A DNA stretch of 64,000 bases from Shigella phage Sf13: sequence record MF158040. The stretch is one strand, 5' to 3'. A program made the position numbers and the translations under genes. Under the pieces are notes generated by a model. That model ran no database searches and was not told where the DNA came from. It saw only the letters and a list, made by a program, of their open reading frames with translations. This document shows, piece by piece, positions 26,672 to 40,009 of this stretch (position 1 is the stretch's first letter; every line of letters begins with the position of its first letter).

Positions 26672-28170
26672 TTACTAAATTTATAATTTTTATAAAATTT
26701 GGGATTCACTCCGTTCATCTTGGGTCACCATGATATGTGATAAAATATCTATACCCTTCTAAACACCCTCTCTAAGCATCATCTCTATATAGTATTATAT
26801 AGTATCTATATAGCCTCTTAGCCCCTAAATAGTGCTCTCTATATAGCCCTCTATAAAGCCTTCTAAGCCTACCATTAATCAACCCTATACAATCACCTTC
26901 CTAACCTCTTCATAGCCCCTTAGAAGCCCCTATACTCATCTTAATCTCTAGGTAAACGATAGTACACTATATAGCAGAATCACTAGGTATTACTAAGCCT
27001 CTATATAGACTGTTATATAACACTAAACAGGTATTCCCTTCTAAGGCTTATCCTACAAGGTCTAACACGGTACTAACAAGGTCTCTTATAAGCCTGTTAA
27101 TTCCTGTTTTATATAAGATAGTGTATAGATAGTTATTCAGTTCTATAAAATTTTTATAAAATAGACTAGGTAGTGTTTGTTTAGGAGTCTTTGGAGAATC
27201 TGAAAAATATCTACTTAGGGTGTATATCTGCTTGGTAGCCCTTAACAGCCCTGTAACATCCCCTTTGCAGTTTATTAAAATATCATTAACAATTTCTTAA
27301 CAACTCTCTCAAGCTCTTAACATCTCTTCAGAGTTCTTAACAATCCCTTAACAGAACTAACAAGAGCTTAACAAGTCTGTAACGTTGCTTACAAGAGTCT
27401 AACAAGTTGCTTATAAGTTGCTAAATAGTTAAATCTTAAGAGTTATTTTGTTAAGATAATTAACAAGGTGCTAACAAGTTCTAAACCTTTTTAACAGTCT
27501 CTTAACATGGTCACTATCTCTTGGTCTATAGTTCCCTATGTTTCTTAGTGATTCTCTATAAAGCCCTCTTAAAAGCTCTCTATAGCTCTGTATAGCCTCT
27601 TCTAAGCTTCTCCCTAGTAACTACACCCCAACTACCTGTATAGCTCTTTATAGGGCTTTCTAGGGGCTTATACAGGTACTTCAAAGAGTCTAACAAGCTT
27701 TTAACATACCTCTAACAAGGATTTAACAAGGGGCTAACAAGTCTCTAATAAGCATAACTATGTAGCATTTGTTAAGATTTTGTTAAGAGAATGTAAAGGG
27801 GGCTAACTTTTACGTTACTTTTAAGGTTCTTTTACGTTACTTTGAAGACTCCATAACATACTTTAAAGCTATTATCAAGCCCCTTTGTAACCATTCACAA
27901 GATTCTATCCAGCTTATAAGCTTATACCCTTATAAGATTCTTTTAAGGCTCTAGAAAGCTCTATAAAGGGCTTTTAAGAGTAGGTTAATATGATTGCTTA
28001 AGATGAGATGATAAGCCCGTATAGAGCGTTATAGAGCGTTTTAGGGATTGCCCTTCCCTTTCGGGTTATGGGCTTATATTTAAGTTGATTTGATAAGAGG
28101 ATATAGAGTAAGCTATAGAGTTATTATTCTAAATGTATGGGATAGATTCTAGGAAGGTTTCTTTATAGAC
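26672..28170. repeat. ORF-free region dense in short direct repeats (TAACAAG/CTTAACA family; CTATA(A/T)AG family)
   Basis: No ORF of 60 aa or more on either strand over ~1.5 kb; many copies of (C)TAACA(A/G)G and CTCTATA(A/T)AG; bounded by convergent terminators. Confidence 0.6.
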
Positions 28171-28194
28171 GTAAAAAGCCCCATCTAAGGGGCT
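28171..28194 (-). terminator. rho-independent terminator (minus strand) ending small-gene block
   Basis: AGCCCC-ttagat-GGGGCT hairpin followed by TTTTT on minus strand. Confidence 0.5.
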
Positions 28195-28235
28195 GTAAAG
28201 GTGTCTGGGGCTATTTGCCCCGTTGCGGCGACTTG

Positions 28236-28493
28236 TTAGTTATTGAAGCCGTCAACTTCATAGTAAAGCGTGATAAGAGAATCACCCCAATAGTAAGAGG
28301 ATTTGCCATCCTTTAAGACTTCTTGTTTTACTTCTTTCCAGAACCACTCAGATTGATTGTAGTCCTGAATAGTTGCTTTTAGACACATATCAACCATGCC
28401 AAAAACATCGCCAGTTCCAACCATATCAAATTTAACATCTAATACATGGAAGCCAAAATTGTTAACAGTTGCGTGGATAGTAGCCATTTTCAT
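28236..28493 (-). CDS. hypothetical protein (85 aa)
   Basis: ORF track; ATG preceded by conserved GGAGAAT leader. Confidence 0.5.
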   Translation of the reverse strand: MKMATIHATVNNFGFHVLDVKFDMVGTGDVFGMVDMCLKATIQDYNQSEWFWKEVKQEVLKDGKSSYYWGDSLITLYYEVDGFNN

Positions 28494-28553
28494 ATTCTCC
28501 AGTTTAGGAATTTTGTTTTAGTGGGGAAGTCTCCCTCCCCGTTGAAAGTAATA
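28494..28553 (-). promoter_or_regulatory. intergenic cassette, short form (GC hairpin + conserved RBS leader)
   Basis: Minus-strand hairpin GGGGA...TCCCC followed by CCTAAACTGGAGAAT and ATG. Confidence 0.5.
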
Positions 28554-28817
28554 TTAATTCATTGCTGCATAAGTTGCAAGTCTTTTTTCATTGTATTTTG
28601 TAAGAATCTCACAAGATAAAACGTCATACTTTGCAACGGCTTCAGATTTAGTTAAACCGAAATGGCTTACAATTTCACCATTCATGAATCCGACTACTTC
28701 ATAAGATTCTGCGATGATTTCACCGTTGAACCAATCACTTTCAATACGTTTGCAAAGTTGGATATCTTCTTTGTCAGTACCGATTTGTAACAGGATAGTG
28801 ATTTCTTGATTATTCAT
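28554..28817 (-). CDS. hypothetical protein (87 aa)
   Basis: ORF track; ATG after conserved leader. Confidence 0.5.
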   Translation of the reverse strand: MNNQEITILLQIGTDKEDIQLCKRIESDWFNGEIIAESYEVVGFMNGEIVSHFGLTKSEAVAKYDVLSCEILTKYNEKRLATYAAMN

Positions 28818-28877
28818 TTTCTAGTCTCCAGTTTAGGATTGTTGGGGAAGGTCATTCCCTCCCCGTTGATAAGTACT
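28818..28877 (-). promoter_or_regulatory. intergenic cassette, short form
   Basis: Hairpin GGGGAAGG...CCCTCCCC variant plus CCTAAACTGGAGACTAGAAA leader. Confidence 0.5.
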
Positions 28878-29405
28878 TTATAGATTTGTGATGATTTCGT
28901 CAAGGGAATTTTCTAAGTTTTTTAAAGATTGTTCGTAAAGTCTAATTCCCCTATTTAATGCTTCCCCTAACGTAATTTTAAAACTAGTTGTTGGGTAGTC
29001 ACTTGTAAAGATGTTTTCCACTTCATAGAGTGGGTATTGTTGGTTACCCGTTCCCATAGCATACATGCCTGTATAGTGGATTGCAATAAAAAGATTATGG
29101 GACTTAATAGAGCGCTCATAAGCCATTTTAAAGCGGTTTAACTCGTTTTTAGTTGCCTTAATAGCCATTTCGTGAATTTCTGCGACTATAGCCATATAAT
29201 CATTCAGAATGAGAGAAATAGCCCCCATAAAGTTGTTGGCTGTTACCGCTTTTACATTTGGTCGGTGTACATAAAACTTCTTATCTTCCCCTTTTGTGAT
29301 AACTGCAAAAACTTTACTCTTTAAGGTAAATTCCCAAGTGTCTTTACAAGGCTTGCTCATCACTTCACGGCTACGGATTGCATTAACAGCATTAAACTTA
29401 TTCAT
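28878..29405 (-). CDS. hypothetical protein (175 aa)
   Basis: ORF track; ATG after conserved leader. Confidence 0.5.
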   Translation of the reverse strand: MNKFNAVNAIRSREVMSKPCKDTWEFTLKSKVFAVITKGEDKKFYVHRPNVKAVTANNFMGAISLILNDYMAIVAEIHEMAIKATKNELNRFKMAYERSIKSHNLFIAIHYTGMYAMGTGNQQYPLYEVENIFTSDYPTTSFKITLGEALNRGIRLYEQSLKNLENSLDEIITNL

Positions 29406-29470
29406 TCTAGATTCTCCAGTTTAGGAATTTTGTTTTAGTGGGGAAGTCTCCCTCCCCGTTGATGAATACT
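29406..29470 (-). promoter_or_regulatory. intergenic cassette, short form (identical core to 28494-28553)
   Basis: Same 50-mer as cassette at 28494; flank duplicated again at 32911-32950. Confidence 0.5.
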
Positions 29471-29611
29471 TTACTTGTTTTGATTCTGCATTGCAAGTAG
29501 TTTTTTATCAAAAACTTTATCTGAGATTTCACCAATGATGAGTACTGCTAATGGCAACACAACAGAAACAATCATACCACAAAGGATAGGGTTTTTAATG
29601 ATATCTAACAT
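29471..29611 (-). CDS. hypothetical small membrane protein (46 aa), not in ORF track
   Basis: ATG preceded by conserved GGAG leader; hydrophobic core ILCGMIVSVVLPLAVLIIG; C-terminus and 3' flank shared with ORF 32922..33269. Confidence 0.4.
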   Translation of the reverse strand: MLDIIKNPILCGMIVSVVLPLAVLIIGEISDKVFDKKLLAMQNQNK

Positions 29612-29807
29612 TTAGTGATTCTCCAGTTTAGGAAGTTGCCTTTTGAAGATACTATATAGATATGATTAAACCTTTGCAAGTACTTTTTACGCTTATCTAT
29701 AAAGAATCTATTAAGTTAATCCCTTTTAGATAAACCCCCTCGAACAAAGTTACACTTGTCAAGGGGCATTGTCAATAGTTTTTCAAAAGATTTTTATAAG
29801 TTGTTGA
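29612..29807 (-). promoter_or_regulatory. unique upstream region with partial cassette and candidate promoter
   Basis: Partial leader (CCTAAACTGGAGAATCACTAA) then unique sequence with two TTGACA hexamers; TTGACA-N17-TAACTT possible. Confidence 0.3.
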
Positions 29808-30149
29808 TTAGCTTATAAAGATTTTTTCTGGCTTAACATAGGTTAATGACTGTTTTTTAAGCAAATCAGACCAAATGAGCGCGGCAATGTGACTATATCC
29901 CTTTTCTCTTAACTCCTGCATAGCTGATTTGCGAGTTTCGAAACGTGTAGCGTAGTATTCAGTGTTAAGGGTAGTTTTATTCCCTTCATTGTCAACATGT
30001 ACAATCTGCATCACTTGAAAGGGGCTTACATCTTCTCCCCTGTTCCATTGCTCAAAGTACTTGAGACACTGCATAGGTTTCATTTTGTCGTTAACTTGGG
30101 TAGACCATGACGAATTTTCTTTATCGGTGATAATTGTTACATAGGCCAT
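29808..30149 (-). CDS. hypothetical protein (113 aa)
   Basis: ORF track; ATG after conserved leader. Confidence 0.5.
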   Translation of the reverse strand: MAYVTIITDKENSSWSTQVNDKMKPMQCLKYFEQWNRGEDVSPFQVMQIVHVDNEGNKTTLNTEYYATRFETRKSAMQELREKGYSHIAALIWSDLLKKQSLTYVKPEKIFIS

Positions 30150-30234
30150 TTTCAGATTCTCCAGTTTAGGATTGTTGGTAAAGCTCTTTATCTGGGGCTT
30201 AAGATACTAGCTTTTAAACCCCATGTAAAGCACT
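30150..30234 (-). promoter_or_regulatory. intergenic cassette, long form (sigma70-like promoter flanked by GGGG/CCCC inverted repeat, then conserved leader)
   Basis: Minus strand: TTTACA, 17-bp spacer, TATCTT; GGGG after -35 and CCCC after -10; leader ACAATCCTAAACTGGAGAAT. Confidence 0.55.
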
Positions 30235-30432
30235 TTAATAAATTCTATCCATCAGATTATTCACGGCCATAATTGCATTATCTTTGAAGTGTGGATGACT
30301 GCTATTCTGTGAGAATAGTATTTCTCCATTGTATACTATTTTTAGGTCTATCTTTGAACCTTCCATGTTAAGGTTACACTCTACACCTTTTAAACACCAC
30401 AAGGTAGAAAGTTTTTGCATCAGTGATAACAT
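30235..30432 (-). CDS. hypothetical protein (65 aa)
   Basis: ORF track; ATG after conserved leader. Confidence 0.5.
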   Translation of the reverse strand: MLSLMQKLSTLWCLKGVECNLNMEGSKIDLKIVYNGEILFSQNSSHPHFKDNAIMAVNNLMDRIY

Positions 30433-30523
30433 TTTAGATTCTCCAGTTTAGGATTGTTGGTAAAGCTCTTTATCTGGGGCTTATCTTATCTAACTATAAA
30501 CCCCATGTAAAGTACTTTATTAG
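30433..30523 (-). promoter_or_regulatory. intergenic cassette, long form
   Basis: TTTACA, 17 bp, TAAGAT with flanking GGGG/CCCC and conserved leader. Confidence 0.55.
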
Positions 30524-30745
30524 TTATTTGTAGTAATAATATGTAAACTCATTTATCAGGCTTCCATCCTCATCATTATACTGCTTATGACTAGCCAGAT
30601 AACCGCCATTAGCTAGAATTTCATCAATCAACTTTTTAGCGTCATCGTTGGGAATCCTAACAGGTTTACTAAACGGCTGTAAATAGGTACGACGAACATT
30701 TGAGAATTTAAAATCAATGGTTTTTACGTTAAGAACTTGCAACAT
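30524..30745 (-). CDS. hypothetical protein (73 aa)
   Basis: ORF track ORF (TTG start inside cassette) trimmed to ATG at M27 directly after conserved leader. Confidence 0.45.
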   Translation of the reverse strand: MLQVLNVKTIDFKFSNVRRTYLQPFSKPVRIPNDDAKKLIDEILANGGYLASHKQYNDEDGSLINEFTYYYYK

Positions 30746-30823
30746 TTTTTGAATCTCCAGTTTAGGATTGTTGGGATGTTTCCCGTTGATGAATACTTTA
30801 CTTTCTTGCGTTTTCAGTGTCAA
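30746..30823 (-). promoter_or_regulatory. intergenic cassette, short form
   Basis: Hairpin GGGA-aaca-TCCC plus conserved leader. Confidence 0.5.
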
Positions 30824-31054
30824 CTACTTTTCTATAAGAATCTCATATTCACCATTCACACTATCAAAGTAAATACCTTCATCATCTTCTGATTTATAGT
30901 AGCACTGTATATCATCCGATGCTGGGTAGTCTTGCCTTGCTATCTGACAGGCAACAATAGCATTATTTTCGCTACCTGTAAACTCTTCTAAACCTTTAAA
31001 GTTGCATTGTGAACCATTGCAGATAGATAGAATAAGATAGATTGTTGTAAGCAT
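30824..31054 (-). CDS. hypothetical secreted/membrane-anchored protein (76 aa, N-terminal hydrophobic signal-like segment)
   Basis: ORF track; N-terminus MLTTIYLILSICNGSQC; AGAGG RBS; lacks the conserved cassette. Confidence 0.45.
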   Translation of the reverse strand: MLTTIYLILSICNGSQCNFKGLEEFTGSENNAIVACQIARQDYPASDDIQCYYKSEDDEGIYFDSVNGEYEILIEK

Positions 31055-31117
31055 CTTTTAAGCCTCTTGTAAGCCCCTGTGCGGGGCTTTTCTAGTGAAC
31101 TGGTGTGATTCTATGGT

Positions 31118-31675
31118 TTATGCTGTTAAGTCGTTTATAACCGTTTCTGTTACGTTGCATTGCATGGTGTCAAAGATATCACAATATACATTGCTCATCC
31201 CATCACTACGTTGGACTATTTCTGCAATGTTGCGTAGTTCGTCTGGTACATATCCTAAATTTCTATTGTTTAGGTTAGGGACAAAGAAAGGCGCATACAT
31301 AGCATTAAATTCAGTTGTGTAAACCTTTTTAATCCATTCTTTATCGAAATATTCTGTAAAGCTTGCTACGTCGCTCATGTTCTCACAGCTCCAGTCATCT
31401 TGTAAATCATCTTCTGGAATATCCAGTTCCAAGATAACAAGCTTTTGTGACTTCATTTGATAGGCTGCTGTAATGCTTGCGCTATCAAGCGCGTTTCTAA
31501 TACCTTCATCTGTGATTTGTTCGTCATCCAGATTCTCTACATCATAGAACTTGTTAACAGGGTAGACGTAAAAACATCCATCCATATCAGAGCAATTCCA
31601 AGCTCCTGATGGTTTATCACCGCCATTGATAAGGTTTACAAAGTTTTCTTGTGTAGTACCATGAAAGCATTTCAT
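31118..31675 (-). CDS. hypothetical protein (185 aa)
   Basis: ORF track; ATG after conserved leader. Confidence 0.5.
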   Translation of the reverse strand: MKCFHGTTQENFVNLINGGDKPSGAWNCSDMDGCFYVYPVNKFYDVENLDDEQITDEGIRNALDSASITAAYQMKSQKLVILELDIPEDDLQDDWSCENMSDVASFTEYFDKEWIKKVYTTEFNAMYAPFFVPNLNNRNLGYVPDELRNIAEIVQRSDGMSNVYCDIFDTMQCNVTETVINDLTA

Positions 31676-31759
31676 TTTAGATTCTCCAGTTTAGGATTGT
31701 TGGTAAAGCTCTTTATCTGGGGCTTATCTTATCTAACTATAAACCCCATGTAAAGCACT
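31676..31759 (-). promoter_or_regulatory. intergenic cassette, long form
   Basis: TTTACA, 17 bp, TAAGAT; GGGG/CCCC flanks; conserved leader. Confidence 0.55.
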
Positions 31760-32008
31760 TTATTTAGTTTTCTTTGTAAAGATTAGTTTAACGGCAACAG
31801 TTGGTAACTCTTCAATACTTGTGAACAAAGTCACTTTTTGAGTCTTGACATTATAGCCATACTTTGAACCATAAGCCGTAAAACGGTTTACAATGTAACT
31901 GTAAGTTTTTGCAGTGTTATCTGGCATATGATATAAAAACGGCTTGCCAAGGTTATCAAGTTGTGTTAAGAGTCGGCATGTATCAGGGATATTCAACATA
32001 TTAAACAT
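31760..32008 (-). CDS. hypothetical protein (82 aa)
   Basis: ORF track; ATG after conserved leader. Confidence 0.5.
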   Translation of the reverse strand: MFNMLNIPDTCRLLTQLDNLGKPFLYHMPDNTAKTYSYIVNRFTAYGSKYGYNVKTQKVTLFTSIEELPTVAVKLIFTKKTK

Positions 32009-32093
32009 TTTCAGATTCTCCAGTTTAGGATTGTTGGGGCTTCTAACTTGCCCCGTTGATGAGTACTCTACTACTATGCTTTTGCAATGTCAA
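32009..32093 (-). promoter_or_regulatory. intergenic cassette, short form
   Basis: Hairpin GGGGC-aagttagaa-GCCCC plus conserved leader. Confidence 0.5.
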
Positions 32094-32501
32094 TCAAATC
32101 TCTGAATAAATTGCATCGCAGATTTCACGGAAAACTTCAACCGGTAAGTTACGCTGTAACCATGTTGCAAAGAAATCAGCAATTGCAAAGTTTGCATCAA
32201 AATCAACACATAGCCACACTTTAACAGCAAATCTAAACATTTTCAAGTCAAGTTCTTTATTCATTACTTTTGACTTTGACAGCATTTCTTTCATCTCATA
32301 CTGAGCACCGTCAATTATAGCTCCTGCTGCTACATCTTGCAAGGATTCTTTAAGCTGTTTTGTGTCTACTACTGCGCCCTGAATTTTACCGATGATATTA
32401 TGTAGTGTTTCGTCTGGTGCTGCTGATGTTACAATGTTGATGCGGTTAATGGTCAAACGTGCTTTCAAAATTGCAACTTCTTTGTGATTAACATTAGTCA
32501 T
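32094..32501 (-). CDS. hypothetical protein (135 aa)
   Basis: ORF track; ATG after leader. Confidence 0.5.
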   Translation of the reverse strand: MTNVNHKEVAILKARLTINRINIVTSAAPDETLHNIIGKIQGAVVDTKQLKESLQDVAAGAIIDGAQYEMKEMLSKSKVMNKELDLKMFRFAVKVWLCVDFDANFAIADFFATWLQRNLPVEVFREICDAIYSEI

Positions 32502-32590
32502 TTTCTAGTCTCCAGTTTAGGTTAGTTTTAGATAAATCTCTTTATCTGGGGCTATCTTAGCAACTTGATAACCCCATGTAAAGCAATTTA
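32502..32590 (-). promoter_or_regulatory. intergenic cassette, long form
   Basis: TTTACA, 17 bp, TAAGAT; leader variant CTAAACTGGAGACTAGAAA. Confidence 0.55.
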
Positions 32591-32863
32591 TTAGACTAAA
32601 TACAATTTTTTACCACTAACAATAATGTAACTTACACCGCTATTACTGTAAACATCTTGATAAATTCTGCGTAACTTTCCAAGGTATCGAACTTTCCAAG
32701 ATGTAGGAATTTTCTTTCCATATCCTGTGGCGGTTTTTTGTAGACCTGCTACCTGCCAATCTAATAGGTGCTGTTCTGCTCTTAACTCTTCAAAGTTTAA
32801 TACACCGTCTACATAGTGTTTTAAAGTTACGTTCAAAGTTCGACCGTCATTAGTAGTATACAT
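32591..32863 (-). CDS. hypothetical protein (90 aa)
   Basis: ORF track; ATG after leader. Confidence 0.5.
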   Translation of the reverse strand: MYTTNDGRTLNVTLKHYVDGVLNFEELRAEQHLLDWQVAGLQKTATGYGKKIPTSWKVRYLGKLRRIYQDVYSNSGVSYIIVSGKKLYLV

Positions 32864-32921
32864 TTTAGATTCTCCAGTTTAGGATTGTTGGGACTTCTAT
32901 CTTGCCCCGTTGATGAATACT
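32864..32921 (-). promoter_or_regulatory. intergenic cassette, short form
   Basis: Imperfect hairpin GGGGCAAGATAGAAGTCCC plus conserved leader; upstream flank duplicated at 29461-29500. Confidence 0.5.
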
Positions 32922-33269
32922 TTACTTGTTTTGATTCTGCATTGCAAGCTCTTTTTTATTAATTTCTTGCGCTATCACAATATAATAATCTTTCAGGTTT
33001 ATATCTTGAATTGACTCTAGAAGTATGTCATAATCACTGATTAATTTAAAATCACCGTCTAGAATGTTATCAATCCGGTATGTCTCTGCTTTAAATCGAA
33101 AGCTCATCTCTAAACGTTTCAATTGTTCTAAGTTCAAACGCTCTAAAAAGCCCCGTACAAGGTTTATTTTTAAATCCCTTGTAAGTGCCTTATTAGCTAT
33201 ACTGTGCGCTTGTAAGGCTTTATAGAGCGCCACAATAGAGATAAAAATTGCAACGTATGTGATTAACAT
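32922..33269 (-). CDS. hypothetical membrane protein (115 aa, N-terminal TM)
   Basis: ORF track; ATG overlaps stop of upstream gene; C-terminus KKELAMQNQNK shared with small ORF 29471..29611. Confidence 0.5.
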   Translation of the reverse strand: MLITYVAIFISIVALYKALQAHSIANKALTRDLKINLVRGFLERLNLEQLKRLEMSFRFKAETYRIDNILDGDFKLISDYDILLESIQDINLKDYYIVIAQEINKKELAMQNQNK

Positions 33270-33559
33270 TTGTTTTTACCTTTGTGGAATAGTTTACCAG
33301 TGTGACTAATTTCATATGAATCAACCATATCTCTAGTGGTCTTAATCGATGACTTATTAGTGTTATCATAGATATCAACCTGAAGCAATGGTTTTTTGTA
33401 TTCTTTACAAAAGTTCCATACACAAATTATTACTTCCTTTTTGTTAATCTTTCCATGATACCACTCTACGGCTTCAGATGTACGGCGCATGGATTCAATG
33501 AATTGGATATTACTTAATAGCTGGCTTAATTTAGTTCTAACGTTTGCGGCAATAAACAT
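33263..33559 (-). CDS. hypothetical protein (98 aa)
   Basis: ORF track; ATG after leader. Confidence 0.5.
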   Translation of the reverse strand: MFIAANVRTKLSQLLSNIQFIESMRRTSEAVEWYHGKINKKEVIICVWNFCKEYKKPLLQVDIYDNTNKSSIKTTRDMVDSYEISHTGKLFHKGKNKC

Positions 33560-33643
33560 TTTAGATTCTCCAGTTTAGGATTGTTTGTAAAGCTCTTTAT
33601 CTGGGGCTATCTTATCAACTTGATAACCCCATGTAAAGCACTT
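33560..33643 (-). promoter_or_regulatory. intergenic cassette, long form
   Basis: TTTACA, 17 bp, TAnnnT; GGGG/CCCC flanks; leader. Confidence 0.55.
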
Positions 33644-34156
33644 TTAGATATTAAAGATATTCATAACAGAATCTTTCAAGGCTTCTAAACGTTCCATTAC
33701 TTCAGATTCTCCATCGGAGTTCGACACTTCCTCTTCTAATCGTGAATCTAAATCTTCACCGTCAAGATAGCACCAATCGAAGCCATAAGCAAGAGAAAAG
33801 CTATTTAATACTGTATTACCTTCTTTATCTTCTACCTTTGCAAATAGCACGTAGCTGTTAGCCTCTAAATCTCTTTGTAATTCATCTTGTAAGCTCTTGT
33901 AAGCCTCTATAGATGGATTTTCGCGGCCTTGTTTAGCATAATCACTCATCAATTGTGAAAGGCTGTAATGCTGTGGAATTGCATATTTGTACCCGTTACG
34001 CTCTGGATTTTTAAGTTTGATTGTAACCCCGCCTTTGTGCTCATCGGTAAACTTCCAATTTTCCACACAATGGGATGCTTCACAAATATTAACAGCTTCA
34101 TAGATGATAGTGAATTTTTCTTTTTGAACTTCAAAGGTAGCTTCAACGTATGACAT
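33644..34156 (-). CDS. hypothetical protein (170 aa)
   Basis: ORF track; ATG after leader. Confidence 0.5.
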   Translation of the reverse strand: MSYVEATFEVQKEKFTIIYEAVNICEASHCVENWKFTDEHKGGVTIKLKNPERNGYKYAIPQHYSLSQLMSDYAKQGRENPSIEAYKSLQDELQRDLEANSYVLFAKVEDKEGNTVLNSFSLAYGFDWCYLDGEDLDSRLEEEVSNSDGESEVMERLEALKDSVMNIFNI

Positions 34157-34248
34157 ATTAAGATTCTCCAGTTTAGGACTATTGGTTAGTAAAGCTCTTT
34201 ATCTGGGGCTTATACTAGCAACTTATAAACCCCATGTAAAGCACTTTA
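34157..34248 (-). promoter_or_regulatory. intergenic cassette, long form
   Basis: TTTACA, 17 bp, TAGTAT; GGGG/CCCC flanks; leader variant. Confidence 0.55.
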
Positions 34249-34506
34249 TCAGATTAAATTGTCAGTTAATGATAAGTGCATTTTATAACCTTTCTTCGTG
34301 TAGACGTTAGTTCTACCGATTGCTTTTACACCTTTGAAAAGGTCATAGGAACTACGTTTTAAAGTAATTTCCTTATCACATTTCACGCCCCATCTTACAG
34401 CAGATTCTTTTCCGTTGTCAACCACTTTACCATTTAATTTTTTAGCAGTTGCGCGAGCGTCATCACGAGATTTTGCAGATACAATGATGTTTTTGATAGT
34501 AGCCAT
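34249..34506 (-). CDS. hypothetical protein (85 aa)
   Basis: ORF track; ATG after leader. Confidence 0.5.
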   Translation of the reverse strand: MATIKNIIVSAKSRDDARATAKKLNGKVVDNGKESAVRWGVKCDKEITLKRSSYDLFKGVKAIGRTNVYTKKGYKMHLSLTDNLI

Positions 34507-34597
34507 TTTTGATACTCCAGTTTAGGTTATTGTTTGGTAAAGCTCTTTATCTGGGGCTTATCTTATCTAACTATAAACCCCATGTAAAGGACTTTAT
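34507..34597 (-). promoter_or_regulatory. intergenic cassette, long form
   Basis: TTTACA, 17 bp, TAAGAT; leader variant CCTAAACTGGAGTATCAAAA. Confidence 0.55.
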
Positions 34598-34978
34598 TTA
34601 GTTAATTTTGAAAACTGTAACGTAGCCATCACTACCAATAGTTTGAGATACTCCAGCTTTCTCTATATCATACCCCATTTTATCAAGATGGTACATTGCA
34701 TCTTCATACCCATATTTACCGCCTTGATAGCGTCTTTTTTCGCATCGTATCACAGTTTTACCACGTCCTGCAATAGCATTTATGATAGCTTTTTCACCGG
34801 ATAATGTACCGTCAAGCATAGTAGCTTTGTAGTGGTTAATACGGTTACCATTAACATCATACTTAAAATTGTAAGCGTGAACAACAATTATTTTTCCTTT
34901 GAAGTTTTCTTTCATAGTTTCCTCTAAGATACTACGAAAGTTTTCTTTGTTGATAAATTTAGGCGCACGATATTTCAT
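34598..34978 (-). CDS. hypothetical protein (126 aa)
   Basis: ORF track; ATG after leader. Confidence 0.5.
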   Translation of the reverse strand: MKYRAPKFINKENFRSILEETMKENFKGKIIVVHAYNFKYDVNGNRINHYKATMLDGTLSGEKAIINAIAGRGKTVIRCEKRRYQGGKYGYEDAMYHLDKMGYDIEKAGVSQTIGSDGYVTVFKIN

Positions 34979-35062
34979 TTTAGATTCTCCAGTTTAGGAT
35001 TGTTGGTAAAGCTCTTTATCTGGGGCTTAAGATACTAGATTTTAAACCCCATGTAAAGCACT
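34979..35062 (-). promoter_or_regulatory. intergenic cassette, long form
   Basis: TTTACA, 17 bp, TATCTT; GGGG/CCCC flanks; leader. Confidence 0.55.
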
Positions 35063-35224
35063 TTATGCAATAATTTTTATAAAATATTTCATGGTTATTT
35101 TGTCGCCATTGGTAAGGGCTATACAATCATTACCCATAGCAGACTTATAGAGATAGAAGACTTTACCAATTTTTGGGTATCCGTCTAAATCTTTGTATTG
35201 TATTACATCGCTTTCTTTAATCAT
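35063..35224 (-). CDS. hypothetical protein (53 aa)
   Basis: ORF track ORF (TTG start) trimmed to ATG at M27 with AAAGG RBS; candidate TTTACA-N17-TTATTA promoter upstream. Confidence 0.4.
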   Translation of the reverse strand: MIKESDVIQYKDLDGYPKIGKVFYLYKSAMGNDCIALTNGDKITMKYFIKIIA

Positions 35225-35235
35225 TGTCAAGCCTT

Positions 35236-35442
35236 TTAAACGTTGTAATAATAAATTGCTGTATGCCTTGTAAACTGTCTTGTATGAGTTGTCAAGTAAC
35301 AATCTGAACTGATTGACGTATCAACATATTCATCAAAATCCTTTTCTGAGATACGTTGCCAAACATCACAAATTAGCATATAGAAACGACGTTTATTTGT
35401 TTTGTTGTTGTCAACAATCATTAACTCACGTTGATATAACAT
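35236..35442 (-). CDS. hypothetical protein (68 aa)
   Basis: ORF track; ATG after leader. Confidence 0.5.
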   Translation of the reverse strand: MLYQRELMIVDNNKTNKRRFYMLICDVWQRISEKDFDEYVDTSISSDCYLTTHTRQFTRHTAIYYYNV

Positions 35443-35500
35443 TTTAGATTCTCCAGTTTAGGATTGTTGGGATGTTTCCCGTTGATGCAAATACTATAAG
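35443..35500 (-). promoter_or_regulatory. intergenic cassette, short form
   Basis: Hairpin GGGA-aaca-TCCC plus conserved leader; same variant as 30746-30823. Confidence 0.5.
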
Positions 35501-35693
35501 ACTGGATTTATGAAGTCAACAAAATTTTTAAAAATATTTTCGATGCTTCGTGAATAGAACGCACGTATGCGGATACACTAAAACAGGAATTTAGTCAAGA
35601 ATTATTTTTGAGTTCTCTACAAATTTTTCTCTTGACTTTTGGGAGGAAGGGGATTAAGAGGGGATGGTGGGGCTGGTTTCCTACAGCTACCTA

Positions 35694-35885
35694 CCTGCAC
35701 AATTTGAAAATGAATTTTCCCTTTGGAGTCCAACTGCATCTGCACAGATTGAAAATGAAAAAGCTCTTTGGAGTCTAAACCTGCACAAATTTGAAATGAA
35801 TTTTCCCTTTGGAGTTCAGCTAAAGAAATCTGTCCAGAGTTCTATGCAACTATACCTGCACAAATTTAAAATGAAAAAGCCCTCC
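35694..35885. repeat. four imperfect ~40-bp direct repeats (CCTGCACAAATTTGAAAATGAA...TTTGGAGT)
   Basis: Units start near 35694, 35740, 35780, 35855; indels between units shift the frame of the overlapping plus ORF. Confidence 0.55.
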
Positions 35886-35946
35886 TTACCTGAGATTTTT
35901 AAACTCAAACTTTGGAGGGCTTGTCTATGTCTAGCTAGGTGACTTA

Positions 35947-36741
35947 TTAGTTACGTGCTTCAACATAGCTTACGTTTTCATGTGTGATATAATCTTCTGC
36001 AAACTCTTCTGTAGTAGCATTGATATATACACTTGCATCATCGCCAAACGTTACCGCTCTGTGGTGGTGGCCTTGTAACGGGTGGGTAACTTGAGCGTTA
36101 CTTCGATTGTACTTATCAACCGGAGGGTAACTGGTGTGTACCTTGCCATTACGCTTCACCTTGAGGGTAACTTTATCCTTGCCTACCACAGCAACACCAT
36201 CAAAGTATTGAGGCTCACTGAAGTTCTCCCAACCAGTAACAGGACTAGTCAACTGACTGTACATCTTATCTTCATAGACATACATATATACGTCAACATC
36301 TTTCATGGTCTGATTAATAATGGACAGCACAGCCATACTATCAAGACCACCAATCCCTGCACCAATCATAGGGAGTCCAACCTTCTTAAGCTGGTTTACT
36401 TTACAGTAGTTGTTAAGACGCTGTAAAGCTGCTTCTAAGGCATTGTATCGTGCATTTTTTCCAGTGATAACCTGAGTATAAAGGTTAGCAATTCGACCCT
36501 GCTTCAAACGTGCTACAGAGATGTTACCAAGCATTAGATTCTTAGGGTTATGGTTTTCACCACCTACTGTAGCATAAACTTCAGCGTCAGTTTCATAAGC
36601 TTTTGGGTAGCGTTTAGCAATTGTTGCTGCGATACCTGCACCCATCAAGTTCATGCAGTTACAACCGTGACCAATGATATCAAACTTCTTACCATCAAAG
36701 TCTTTAAAGATATCACCTTTAATAATTTTTACGATACCCAT
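35947..36741 (-). CDS. macro domain (ADP-ribose binding/processing) protein with C-terminal domain of unknown function
   Basis: Macro-like motifs IIKGDIF...GHGCNCMNLMGAGIAATIAKRYP ... KKVGLPMIGAGIGGLD; start set to ATG at M20 one nt after the zinc-ribbon gene stop. Confidence 0.55.
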   Translation of the reverse strand: MGIVKIIKGDIFKDFDGKKFDIIGHGCNCMNLMGAGIAATIAKRYPKAYETDAEVYATVGGENHNPKNLMLGNISVARLKQGRIANLYTQVITGKNARYNALEAALQRLNNYCKVNQLKKVGLPMIGAGIGGLDSMAVLSIINQTMKDVDVYMYVYEDKMYSQLTSPVTGWENFSEPQYFDGVAVVGKDKVTLKVKRNGKVHTSYPPVDKYNRSNAQVTHPLQGHHHRAVTFGDDASVYINATTEEFAEDYITHENVSYVEARN

Positions 36742-38787: not shown

Positions 38788-39483
38788 TCAGTTTTTAACA
38801 AGCATTGTTTTGATGTGTGGTAAGATTCTTTCAACCTTTGCCACGTTCTTCACTGTATCTTCTATAAAGCATACTACATCATAGTAGGGTAGAATGCAAG
38901 ACTGAAGCATACGAACTTTCAAACTTTCTGCACTAATCTCATTGTCACCAAATCCACGCATAAACAGTAGGAAATCACTGTCTACATTCTCATTCAGGAA
39001 AAGATGTGTGACAACTCTTTGTGATTCACCACGAGCAGTTAGGAATCCTATATCAGCATTTCTTGATATACCACACAGGATGTTAAAAACATATGTTGGT
39101 TTAGCTCTGCGAGAGTCTACCAAGTTAGTATATTGTGAGTAAGAACCATCATCTAACAGAGTTGCATTAAGTTTCTTGTCAAAGCTTGTAAGAACACCAT
39201 CAATGTCTGCTAAGACCATTTTACGTTTTTCTTCCAAGTTCTTTGCAACCAAGATAAGGCTGTTACGACCAACATATACAGTTTTACCTGTTAGCAAATC
39301 CTGACAAGGAATCTGTGTCTTTGTTGAGTGGAAGTCTTCAAAGCTACACACAACATTTCTTGCTGTATCTGCAAAGTCAGCTTTAGCAATATCTGACCAA
39401 CTTGCAGAACTGATATCTAAATCAAGTGGTTTAATATCATAAGCATGACACAGAACCATATCAAATTGTTTTGATTCGCTCAT
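38788..39483 (-). CDS. HAD-superfamily hydrolase candidate (nucleotidase/phosphatase-like)
   Basis: Motif VLADIDGVLT resembling HAD motif I (DxDGxT); otherwise unassigned. Confidence 0.35.
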   Translation of the reverse strand: MSESKQFDMVLCHAYDIKPLDLDISSASWSDIAKADFADTARNVVCSFEDFHSTKTQIPCQDLLTGKTVYVGRNSLILVAKNLEEKRKMVLADIDGVLTSFDKKLNATLLDDGSYSQYTNLVDSRRAKPTYVFNILCGISRNADIGFLTARGESQRVVTHLFLNENVDSDFLLFMRGFGDNEISAESLKVRMLQSCILPYYDVVCFIEDTVKNVAKVERILPHIKTMLVKN

Positions 39484-40009
39484 ATTTTACCTTTTTAATG
39501 TTTGTTGCAAACTCACATTGAGCCAGCAGTTTCATGTTATTGTACACATCTTGAGAGTATTGTCTAGCCTTTGGAATCTTGTATTTGTAACCAGCATTAT
39601 AAGAAGCTAGGACACGCTTCATAGAGTACTTTCCATCTGGGTTACCATGAACCTTAGTCCAGAATAATAGCTCCTTATGAGCCTCTTTCGCTGAGTAATG
39701 GAAGTCACTTACTAGCTTCTTCTTAGCAACCTTTGGAGATACCTTGTTACGCTTTACAACAGTCTTCAAGTGATTCTGGAAAACACCATAATCATGAGTC
39801 TTTTTATTTTCTAACATGACACCTAATTGTGACTCTTGTAAGGCTATAGCTGCTAAAGGGATTCCCCAACCTTTTCCCATCTGCCCTTCGCCATAGTTAT
39901 ATGCTTTTAACATATTAACTTTCTGGCTGATTGTAAGCTCTGGACAGTCAGATGCTGTAGCTAAATGTGCTGTAAAGAATAAGCACAAACCTAAAACAAA
40001 TTTCTTCAT
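39461..40009 (-). CDS. secreted lytic transglycosylase (SLT-domain) protein
   Basis: Signal peptide MKKFVLGLCLFFTAHLATAS; SLT-like motif AAIALQESQLG...YGVFQ; start set to M9 with AGGAG RBS. Confidence 0.45.
   Translation of the reverse strand: MKKFVLGLCLFFTAHLATASDCPELTISQKVNMLKAYNYGEGQMGKGWGIPLAAIALQESQLGVMLENKKTHDYGVFQNHLKTVVKRNKVSPKVAKKKLVSDFHYSAKEAHKELLFWTKVHGNPDGKYSMKRVLASYNAGYKYKIPKARQYSQDVYNNMKLLAQCEFATNIKKVKYERIKTI

What the first reader, a model, noticed from the sequence alone, without database searches (positions are those of the whole stretch)
28494..35500. Short-form cassettes keep a hairpin of variable sequence but no recognisable promoter
Six cassettes (starting 28494, 28818, 29406, 30746, 32009, 32864, 35443) lack the TTTACA/-10 pair but keep a GC-clamped hairpin directly upstream of the conserved leader. 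The stem sequence changes between copies (GGGGA/TCCCC, GGGGC/GCCCC, GGGA/TCCC) while pairing is preserved, a compensatory pattern that suggests the structure itself is selected. These may be RNA processing or stability elements, or translational operators, inside polycistronic early transcripts.
Basis: partly seen in the sequence, partly recalled or inferred. Interest (0 to 1): 0.55.

Follow-up and report, generated by a model that had tools for sequence, protein, structure and literature searches.

The report
Phage early promoters with 5' hairpins
The "promoter-less" hairpin cassettes are complete host-type early promoters of a Felix O1-like phage, each followed by a short G/C-clamped hairpin at the predicted start of its transcript, and they closely resemble the promoter/stem-loop (PeSL) cassettes already described in T4-like phages.

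Summary
The window is an Ounavirinae (Felix O1/Mooglevirus-like) phage, and the genes at 28.2-35.5 kb lie on the minus strand. Seven (not six) short-form cassettes sit at the stated coordinates. Each has a G/C-clamped hairpin next to the conserved leader, and it folds in the transcribed orientation. The claim of "no recognisable promoter" is wrong. All seven carry TTGACA/TTGCAA-N17-TAaAGT exactly 10 nt upstream of the stem, partly inside the 3' end of the upstream ORF. So do all 73 unique copies collected from the window and relatives. The hairpin should therefore start 2-3 nt after the predicted transcription start. Stems fall into three families (GGGA/TCCC, GGGGAGG/CCTTCCCC, GGGGC/GCCCC) with variable loops. 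Formal covariation is modest, resting on two pair positions and few independent events. Stems are 4-8 bp with no U-tract, so they are neither RNase III sites nor canonical terminators. Variable loops argue against an operator. The architecture matches PeSLs of T4-type phages, including cassette-bounded gene indels. My best reading is a portable early-promoter cassette whose transcribed hairpin protects or insulates the mRNA 5' end. That function is inferred, not shown. This is a new member of a known kind and of low-to-moderate interest.

The parts
35440..35519 (-). Short-form cassette 1, the first promoter of the ORFan cluster: -35 TTGACT 35514-35519, -10 TAGTAT 35491-35496, hairpin GGGAAACATCCC 35469-35480, SD GGAG 35451-35454, ATG 35440-35442
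   Evidence: hairpin pair probability 0.74-0.94 from the predicted start; lies downstream of a canonical terminator
32861..32947 (-). Short-form cassette: -35 TTGCAA 32942-32947, -10 TAAAGT 32919-32924 (its TAA is the stop codon of the upstream ORF), hairpin GGGGCAAGATAGAAGTCCC 32890-32908 (contains a G.U pair), SD 32872-32875, ATG 32861-32863
32006..32093 (-). Short-form cassette: -35 TTGACA 32088-32093, -10 TAGAGT 32065-32070, hairpin GGGGCAAGTTAGAAGCCCC 32036-32054, SD 32018-32021, ATG 32006-32008
   Evidence: (10/12 promoter match)
30743..30823 (-). Short-form cassette: -35 TTGACA 30818-30823, -10 TAAAGT 30795-30800, hairpin GGGAAACATCCC 30773-30784, SD 30755-30758, ATG 30743-30745
   Evidence: (10/12 promoter match)
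29403..29496 (-). Short-form cassette: -35 TTGCAA 29491-29496, -10 TAAAGT 29468-29473, hairpin GGGGAGGGAGACTTCCCC 29440-29457, longer linker ACTAAAACAAAATTC, SD 29414-29417, ATG 29403-29405
28815..28903 (-). Short-form cassette: -35 TTGACG 28898-28903, -10 TAAAGT 28875-28880, hairpin GGGGAGGGAATGACCTTCCCC 28844-28864 (8 bp, -17.9 kcal/mol for the whole leader), SD 28826-28829, ATG 28815-28817
28485..28579 (-). Short-form cassette: -35 TTGCAA 28574-28579, -10 TAATAT 28551-28556, hairpin GGGGAGGGAGACTTCCCC 28523-28540, SD 28497-28500, probable ATG 28485-28487 (an in-frame ATG at 28491-28493 lies only 3 nt after the SD)
29612..29679 (-). Hairpin-less variant: TTGCAA-N17-TATAGT followed directly by the leader and SD, with no G/C stem
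30150..35057 (-). Eight interspersed long-form cassettes: 30150-30229, 30433-30511, 31676-31754, 32502-32582, 33560-33637, 34157-34240, 34507-34588, 34979-35057. Each has TTTACA-N17-TAAGAT/TATCTT/TAGTAT, with a 9-11 bp G/C-clamped hairpin spanning the spacer and -10, then AGATAAAGAGCTTTACC and the same leader
35866..35922 (-). Canonical intrinsic terminator (AAGCCCUCC...GGAGGGCUU + UUUUUCAUUUU) upstream of the first cassette
   Evidence: corresponds in position and 3' sequence to Felix O1 t13
28177..28194 (-). Canonical intrinsic terminator after the last gene of the cluster (AGCCCCTTAGATGGGGCT + TTTTACGTCT)

Best explanation
Each short-form cassette is a complete, portable early-expression unit of a Felix O1-like phage. 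Read on the minus strand it has these parts in order: an A/T-rich stretch; a sigma-70 promoter (TTGACA-like -35, 17-nt spacer, TAaAGT -10, often embedded in the last codons and stop codon of the upstream ORF); a conserved ATCAAC segment that should hold the transcription start (an A 2-3 nt before the stem); a 4-8 bp G/C-clamped stem-loop; an unstructured A-rich leader; a GGAG Shine-Dalgarno sequence; and the ATG. The anatomy and its conservation are shown. The start site is inferred from promoter geometry. The hairpin is most likely an RNA-level element of the sense strand. As a 5'-terminal stem-loop it would hinder RppH and 5'-end-dependent RNase E attack on the cassette's own transcript. In read-through RNA from upstream cassettes it would sit between cistrons as a small protective or insulating hairpin that keeps the standard leader unpaired. 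These functions are inferred. The repeated cassettes also serve as recombination points at which small genes are gained, lost and swapped. Breakpoints are shown; the mechanism is inferred. The system is the Ounavirinae counterpart of the PeSL (promoter-early stem-loop) cassettes of T4-type phages.
For: Promoter:
- 7/7 window copies and 73/73 unique copies from the window and relatives carry TTG (100/92/100%) and TA...T (100%) at a fixed offset, while the spacer is variable.
- The region upstream of -35 is 68-88% A+T.

Geometry:
- An invariant 10 nt separates the -10 from the stem, ending in ATCAAC (95-100% conserved).

Hairpin:
- It is in the MFE in all 7.
- Pair probability is 0.74-1.0 from the predicted start, and >=0.83 in read-through context in 6/7.
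- All 32 unique variants fold at the same place.
- Within one orthologous promoter series (TTGACT...TAGTAT-TTGCATCAAC) the stem is GGGA/TCCC, GGGC/GCCC, GGGGT/GCCCC, GGGGC/GCCCC or GGGGAGG/CCTTCCCC in different phages.
- Stems contain 16 G.U pairs and no A.C mismatch. This fits pairing of the sense strand.

Context:
- The first cassette lies behind a canonical terminator yet keeps its hairpin in all relatives.
- The stabilising effect of 5' structure against RppH and RNase E is established (review PMC3997798).

PeSL parallels:
- PeSLs have the same parts, G(n)-loop-C(n) stems, and subclasses with the stem over the -10 or just downstream of it (PMC2839356; PMC4122927).
- 31 of 39 internal homology breakpoints against relatives fall in cassettes, which cover 26% of the region.
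- ORF 30235-30432 plus one cassette is an exact insertion relative to Mordin, Maleficent and the IMG/VR contig L004.
Against: - No transcript 5' ends or half-lives are available. I found no TSS-resolved transcriptome of an Ounavirinae phage.
- The eight long-form cassettes carry an even stronger hairpin whose 5' arm lies upstream of their own predicted start. A 5'-end role therefore cannot be the common function of both classes.
- One cassette (29612-29679) works with no hairpin.
- The 4-5 bp stems are weak (-5 to -10 kcal/mol; z -0.35 to -1.15).
- Covariation statistics are modest and rest on a few hairpin alleles that may spread by recombination rather than by repeated compensatory mutation.
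- Two to three unpaired 5' nucleotides may still allow some RppH action (data for B. subtilis RppH).
Confidence: 0.55

Rival explanations
1. The hairpin is a transcription attenuator or terminator acting on RNA polymerase arriving from upstream cassettes. It would limit the build-up of read-through along the 16-promoter array. This is the role proposed for PeSL stem-loops.
For: It explains why both long and short forms keep a hairpin between the upstream stop codon and the downstream SD. A PeSL stem-loop from RB49/phi1 reduced lacZ expression about as much as the rrnB T1 terminator (PMC2839356). There is no canonical terminator inside the 7-kb array.
Against: No U-tract follows any short-form stem (AACAAUCC or ACUAAAU), and the terminator scan did not call them. 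The phage uses canonical stem-plus-U-run terminators at both ends of the array. In the short form the hairpin lies downstream of its own start, so an efficient terminator would abort the cassette's own transcript. Some stems are only 4-5 bp.
Confidence: 0.2
2. The hairpin has little or no RNA function. It is kept because the cassettes are paralogous repeats homogenised by recombination, or because a DNA-level hairpin or G/C clamp favours cassette-to-cassette recombination (module shuffling, mini-circles).
For: There are few independent stem alleles and the formal covariation is modest, with a -1 register slide scoring nearly as well. The same promoter is joined to different stems and different downstream genes in relatives, which indicates crossovers inside cassettes. 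Breakpoints are concentrated in cassettes. RB49 mini-circle crossovers mapped to the stem-loop (PMC2839356). One cassette lacks a hairpin.
Against: Loops diverge in length and sequence while a stem is kept at the same place in all 32 unique variants. There are G.U pairs but no A.C mismatches. True double changes occur: A-U/C-G at the fifth stem pair and G-C/A-U at the fourth. Three unrelated inner-stem sequences all pair.
Confidence: 0.15
3. The hairpin is a specific recognition site: an RNase III processing site, a translational operator, or a boxB-like antitermination hairpin bound by a phage protein.
For: Fixed position in a conserved leader. The flanking ATCAAC is 95-100% conserved.
Against: Stems of 4-8 bp are far below the roughly two helical turns RNase III needs (established knowledge). 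Loop sequence and length vary freely (AACA, AGCAA, GAATGA, AAGCAA, AAGTTAGAA...), as does the inner stem. The SD is not included in the stem. No Rfam family matches. The ORF annotated 'RegB-like' in phage Mordin gives only a sub-threshold SLT hit.
Confidence: 0.05

Closest known systems
PeSL (promoter-early stem-loop) cassettes of T4-type phages RB49/phi1, PST/T4 and nt-1/KVP40 (Arbiol et al. 2010, PMC2839356; Comeau et al. 2014, PMC4122927)
   Same: Repeated ~70-100 bp intergenic cassettes in a region of small genes of unknown function. They share an A/T-rich stretch, a sigma-70-like promoter with a 17-nt spacer, a G(n)-loop-C(n) stem-loop with G.T pairs, and an SD and ATG at the 3' end. Subclasses are defined by stem position: over the -10 (the long form here) or just downstream of the -10 (the short form here). 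Both are associated with gene indels and replacements.
   Different: The host lineage is Ounavirinae (Felix O1-like, ~88 kb), not T4-like, and the cassette sequences are unrelated. [quoted passage not shown] Terminator activity and mini-circles are not tested here.
5'-terminal stabilising stem-loops of E. coli mRNAs (ompA and papA 5' UTRs; appended 5' hairpins; Emory, Bouvet & Belasco 1992, as reviewed in PMC3997798)
   Same: A stable hairpin within a few nucleotides of the mRNA 5' end, followed by an unstructured leader and a strong SD.
   Different: The 5' end is predicted here, not mapped. Some stems are much weaker than ompA hp1. No half-life data exist.
The '57-bp' and '39-bp' direct repeats reported in the Felix O1 genome (Whichard et al. 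2010, PMC3185647) and the 14-nt 'repeat_region' features in Citrobacter phage Mordin (KT363872)
   Same: They are the same elements. The 39-bp repeat TTGACACTGGTTTTTAGATAGATTAAATTACACATCAAC is the short-form promoter, and the 57-bp repeat is the long form. Mordin's repeat_region is the leader.
   Different: They were reported only as repeats, with no promoter, hairpin or function assigned. The Felix O1 paper listed five other putative promoters and said the temporal control of transcription was unknown.
Rho-independent terminators
   Same: A G/C-rich stem-loop in an intergenic position.
   Different: No 3' U-tract, short stems, and a position downstream of the cassette's own promoter.

Membership tests
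PeSL-type promoter/stem-loop cassette | Repeated intergenic motif concentrated in a region of small ORFs of unknown function | tested here: met
   16 cassettes in 7 kb, each upstream of a 46-185 aa ORF. The homologous genes in relatives are annotated 'hypothetical protein'.
PeSL-type promoter/stem-loop cassette | Sigma-70-like -35/-10 with a ~17-nt spacer and an A/T-rich upstream region | tested here: met
   By sequence only: 7/7 in the window and 73/73 unique copies. Upstream A+T is 68-88%. Promoter activity was not measured.
PeSL-type promoter/stem-loop cassette | Stem-loop of G-run/loop/C-run type within or next to the promoter | tested here: met
PeSL-type promoter/stem-loop cassette | Shine-Dalgarno sequence and start codon at the 3' end of the motif | tested here: met
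   GGAG followed by 8-9 nt and ATG in all seven
PeSL-type promoter/stem-loop cassette | Gene insertions, deletions and replacements between close relatives bounded by the cassettes | tested here: met
   31/39 internal breakpoints lie in cassettes, against 26% coverage. There is a one-ORF-plus-cassette insertion at 30238-30431. Caveat: the cassettes are essentially the whole intergenic space.
PeSL-type promoter/stem-loop cassette | Stem-loop terminates or attenuates transcription; cassette pairs excise as mini-circles | not testable with these tools
   Needs reporter assays and inverse PCR on infected cells.
PeSL-type promoter/stem-loop cassette | Described so far in T4-like myoviruses; sequence homology to those cassettes | tested here: not met
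   The window is Ounavirinae. The cassette consensus differs from the PeSL consensus sequences quoted. Membership is therefore by architecture, not by descent.
Rho-independent terminator | G/C-rich stem immediately followed by a U-tract | tested here: not met
   The stems are followed by AACAAUCC or ACUAAAA. None was called by the scan, whereas true terminators at 28177-28194 and 35866-35922 were found.
RNase III processing site | Roughly 20 bp or more of (near) continuous double-stranded RNA | tested here: not met
   Stems are 4-8 bp. The length requirement is from established knowledge.
5'-terminal stabilising stem-loop | Hairpin within a few unpaired nucleotides of the primary 5' end | tested here: inconclusive
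   The start is predicted at an A 7-9 nt after the -10, which is 2-3 nt before the stem. No 5'-end data were found.
5'-terminal stabilising stem-loop | The hairpin lengthens mRNA half-life in an RppH- or RNase E-dependent way | not testable with these tools
   Needs rifampicin-chase experiments.
boxB/nut-like or operator hairpin | Conserved loop or stem sequence recognised by a protein | tested here: not met
   Loop length ranges from 4 to 9 nt with unrelated sequences, and there are three unrelated inner stems.

The most novel reading that the evidence does not exclude
Felix O1-like phages and T4-like phages, which share no cassette sequence, have converged on the same design. That design is a strong host-type promoter, a G/C-clamped hairpin and a standard leader, used as a plug-in unit for small accessory genes. 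In the short form the hairpin is deliberately placed at the first nucleotides of the mRNA as a portable 5' stabiliser or insulator. Crossovers within the cassettes, possibly at the hairpin, shuffle genes and hairpin alleles between phages.
Probability: 0.35. Interest if true: 0.45.

Novelty: new member of a known kind. Interest (0 to 1): 0.28.

Why it matters
The result gives Felix O1-like phages, which are widely used for Salmonella, E. coli and Shigella typing and biocontrol, a concrete map of early promoters. The original genome paper left that map open. It also shows that the PeSL design is not confined to T4-like phages. The cassettes are compact, natural "promoter + 5' hairpin + RBS" parts. 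They come in a ready-made allelic series of stems (4-8 bp), which could be used to test how 5' structure sets mRNA lifetime during infection. None of this overturns current understanding.

Tried and rejected
- **T4-like PeSLs proper.** I first suspected these from the leader. The genome turned out to be Ounavirinae.
- **MAFFT alignment of whole hairpin regions (A1).** It split the 3' arm and was unusable for pair counts. I replaced it with a gap-free alignment of the first and last 8 nt of each hairpin segment (A2).
- **RegB-type cleavage of the GGAG leader.** The ORF annotated 'similar to RegB' in phage Mordin (window 39464-40009, minus strand) gives only a sub-threshold SLT transglycosylase hit. 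No RegB evidence, so I dropped it.
- **Rfam scan of 27500-36500 at E<=1.** Only two chance miRNA hits.
- **Literature searches for PeSL in Felix O1-like phages and for TSS-level transcriptomes of Ounavirinae.** Nothing relevant found.
- **An alternative promoter for the long form using its conserved TAAAGT as -10.** Rejected because no -35 is conserved 17 nt upstream. That TAA is mostly the upstream stop codon.
- **Three IMG/VR pattern hits (L009, L023, L024).** These are chance matches without promoter hexamers and were excluded.


Full report
**Identity and orientation.** The 8 kb around the finding is 97.7% identical to Escherichia phage vB_EcoM_3HA14. It matches many Shigella, Citrobacter and Salmonella phages of the subfamily Ounavirinae (Felix O1-like, Mooglevirus-like). 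All genes in 28.2-35.5 kb are on the minus strand, so the cassettes must be read as the reverse complement.

**What is there.**
- The leader core CTAAACTGGAG occurs 16 times on the minus strand between 28497 and 35461, against 1.35 expected by chance.
- Read in the transcribed direction, eight copies are the long form: TAAAGTGC-TTTACA-T-[GGGGTTTA...TAAGCCCC]-AGATAAAGAGCTTTACC-AACAATCCTAAACTGGAG-N8-ATG.
- The finding says "six" but lists seven coordinates. All seven are real.

- Each short form carries a sigma-70-type promoter directly upstream of the stem. It consists of TTGACA/TTGCAA/TTGACG/TTGACT, exactly 17 nt, then TAAAGT/TAATAT/TAGAGT/TAGTAT, then exactly 10 nt ending in TCAAC, then the first G of the stem.
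- The consensus scan lists four of the seven at 9-10 of 12 matches. The three TTGCAA promoters score 8 of 12 and fall below its cut-off, but they lie in exactly the same register.
- A pattern of this kind occurs at only 62 of 127,940 positions in the window.
- The promoter was easy to miss because it lies in non-repeated sequence. In four of seven cassettes the TAA of the -10 hexamer is the stop codon of the upstream ORF, so the -35 and spacer are coding.
- I collected relatives with an IMG/VR scan anchored only on the flanks (CATCAAC...CCTAAACTGGAG), plus Felix O1, Mordin and Maleficent. This gave 73 unique short-form cassettes.
- In these, TTG of the -35 is 100/92/100% conserved and T, A and the final T of the -10 are 100% conserved. 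The spacer is only 33-79% conserved, and ATCAAC is 95-100% conserved. This is the signature of a promoter under selection.
- Three chance hits of the search pattern (L009, L023, L024) lack the hexamers and act as negative controls.
- The Felix O1 genome paper lists the short-form promoter as a 39-bp "direct repeat" and the long form as a 57-bp repeat. It does not call either a promoter (sequences checked).

**The hairpin.**
- In sense orientation the stem-loop is part of the minimum-free-energy fold in all seven leaders.
- Closing-pair probabilities are 0.74-1.0 when the RNA starts at the predicted start. They are >=0.83 in six of seven when 120 nt of upstream RNA is included.
- The exception in read-through context is the first cassette, which lies behind a canonical terminator at 35866-35922.
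- Energy z-scores are good for the GGGGAGG-type stems (-2.3 to -3.2) but weak for the 4-5 bp stems (-0.35 to -1.15).
- Across the window and relatives there are 32 unique hairpin segments. All fold at the same place.
- They fall into three stem families: GGGA/TCCC, GGGGAGG(G)/(C)CCTTCCCC with derivatives GGGAGG/CCTCCC and GGGGGG/CCTCCCC, and GGGGC/GCCCC with GGGGT/GCCCC and GGGC/GCCC. Loops are 4-9 nt of unrelated sequence.
- One orthologous promoter (TTGACT...TAGTAT-TTGCATCAAC, the first of the array) is followed by members of all three families in different phages.
- Stems contain 16 G.U pairs and no A.C mismatch. The sense strand is the more stable one in 20 of 32 variants. This modestly favours pairing of the transcribed strand.

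**How strong is the covariation?**
- On a gap-free alignment of the outer 8 nt of each arm (25 distinct rows), 73.9% of cells pair, against 68.6% after shuffling (1/500). The covariation score is 0.160 against 0.119 (11/500).
- Only two pair positions show changes on both sides: G-C/A-U at the fourth stem pair and A-U/C-G at the fifth. A -1 register slide scores nearly as well (65% paired, score 0.152).
- The three outermost G-C pairs are almost invariant and so say nothing either way.
- The cassettes are paralogues that recombine, so the number of independent events is small.
- The compensatory pattern is therefore real but limited. The better argument for a maintained structure is that loops and inner stems turn over while a stem always remains at the same place.

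**What the hairpin is not.**
- It is not a canonical terminator. No U-tract follows it (AACAAUCC or ACUAAAA), and the scan does not call it. The array is bounded by two textbook terminators, at 35866-35922 and 28177-28194. In the short form it lies downstream of its own start.
- It is not an RNase III site, because the stems are 4-8 bp.
- It is not an operator or boxB-like site, because loops and inner stems vary freely and the SD is outside the stem.
- No Rfam family matches.
- A RegB-type mechanism acting on the GGAG leader has no support. The ORF annotated RegB-like in Mordin (window 39464-40009) shows only a sub-threshold SLT hit.

**Most likely mechanism.**
- From promoter geometry, the start should be an A 7-9 nt after the -10. 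That is 2-3 nt before the stem. This is inferred and has not been mapped.
- A stem-loop this close to a triphosphate 5' end is the arrangement known to slow RppH and 5'-end-dependent RNase E decay (review PMC3997798).
- There is no terminator inside the array, so each hairpin also lies between cistrons in read-through RNA. There it could protect processed ends or keep the standard leader unpaired.
- The main weakness is the long form. Its 9-11 bp hairpin (-12 to -17 kcal/mol, with clear covariation TTTA/TAAG versus TTAT/ATAG) spans the spacer and -10, so its 5' arm is not in its own transcript. A 5'-end role therefore cannot be the only function of such hairpins.
- For that reason the attenuator and DNA-level recombination readings stay as rivals.

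**Comparison with known systems.**
- The architecture matches PeSLs of T4-type phages. These have an A/T-rich region, a sigma-70 promoter with a 17-nt spacer, a G(n)-loop-C(n) stem-loop with G.T pairs, and an SD and ATG. They have five subclasses by stem position, including "overlapping the -10" and "downstream of the -10" (PMC2839356; PMC4122927).
- As with PeSLs, differences in gene content between relatives are bounded by cassettes. Of 39 internal homology breakpoints, 31 fall in cassettes, which cover 26% of the region.
- The window has one ORF (30235-30432) plus one cassette inserted where Mordin, Maleficent and the IMG/VR contig L004 have a single cassette. One caveat is that the cassettes are nearly the whole intergenic space.
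- Membership is by design, not by descent. The phage lineage and the cassette sequences are different, and terminator or mini-circle activity is untested.
- I found no paper describing PeSL-like cassettes in Felix O1-like phages.
- Felix O1 RT-PCR data place ORFs 16, 20, 21 and 22, which lie behind such cassettes, at 5 min. ORFs 17, 19 and 23 are placed at 25 min. This is broadly consistent with early expression.

**Verdict.** The element is a new member of a known kind and of low-to-moderate interest.

Noticed in passing
window 35693-35896: Four direct repeats of ~43 nt (ACCTGCACAAATTTGAAAATGAA...CTTTGGAGT; 63-88% identical to the reference copy; spacing 45, 41 and 75 nt). They lie in the non-coding gap upstream of the first cassette, and the fourth copy overlaps the terminator at 35866-35922. 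They look iteron-like, so an origin or a regulatory binding array is possible.
   Followed up: partly
window 30150-35057 (eight long-form cassettes): The long-form hairpin is 9-11 bp and includes the 3' half of the -10 hexamer. Its G/C-rich 3' arm (AAGCCCC) forms the discriminator. It shows clear compensatory variants (GGGGTTTA/TAAGCCCC, GGGGTTAT/ATAGCCCC, GGGGCTTA/TAAGCCCC) across relatives. Promoter activity could be coupled to the structure or to supercoiling.
   Followed up: partly
window 28551-28556, 28875-28880, 29468-29473, 32919-32924: The TAA of the -10 hexamer (TAAAGT/TAATAT) is also the stop codon of the upstream ORF, so the -35 and spacer are coding sequence of the preceding gene.
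   Followed up: yes
window 29612-29679: One cassette has a good promoter (TTGCAA-N17-TATAGT) and the standard leader but no G/C hairpin. It is a natural hairpin-less control, upstream of a 46-aa ORF annotated as a membrane protein in phage Maleficent.
   Followed up: partly
window 30238-30431: ORF 30235-30432 (65 aa) plus one long-form cassette is present here but absent at the same place in phages Mordin and Maleficent and the IMG/VR contig L004, which have a single cassette there. This is a cassette-bounded indel of the PeSL type.
   Followed up: yes
window 39464-40009 (minus strand): This 182-aa ORF with a signal-peptide-like N-terminus is 98% identical to Mordin_137. That protein is annotated 'similar to T4 endoribonuclease RegB', but Pfam gives only a sub-threshold SLT transglycosylase match. 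The RegB label looks like an annotation artefact.
   Followed up: yes
window 28485-28493: There are two in-frame ATGs (ATGAAAATG). The first is only 3 nt after the GGAG, while the second has the 9-nt spacing seen in other cassettes. The start is therefore probably 28487, not 28493.
   Followed up: partly
all 16 leaders, e.g. window 32018-32031: A 3-bp pairing between UCC of the leader and GGA of the Shine-Dalgarno sequence (UCC-UAAACU-GGA) is predicted in most leader folds. It is too weak to assess but is invariant.
   Followed up: no
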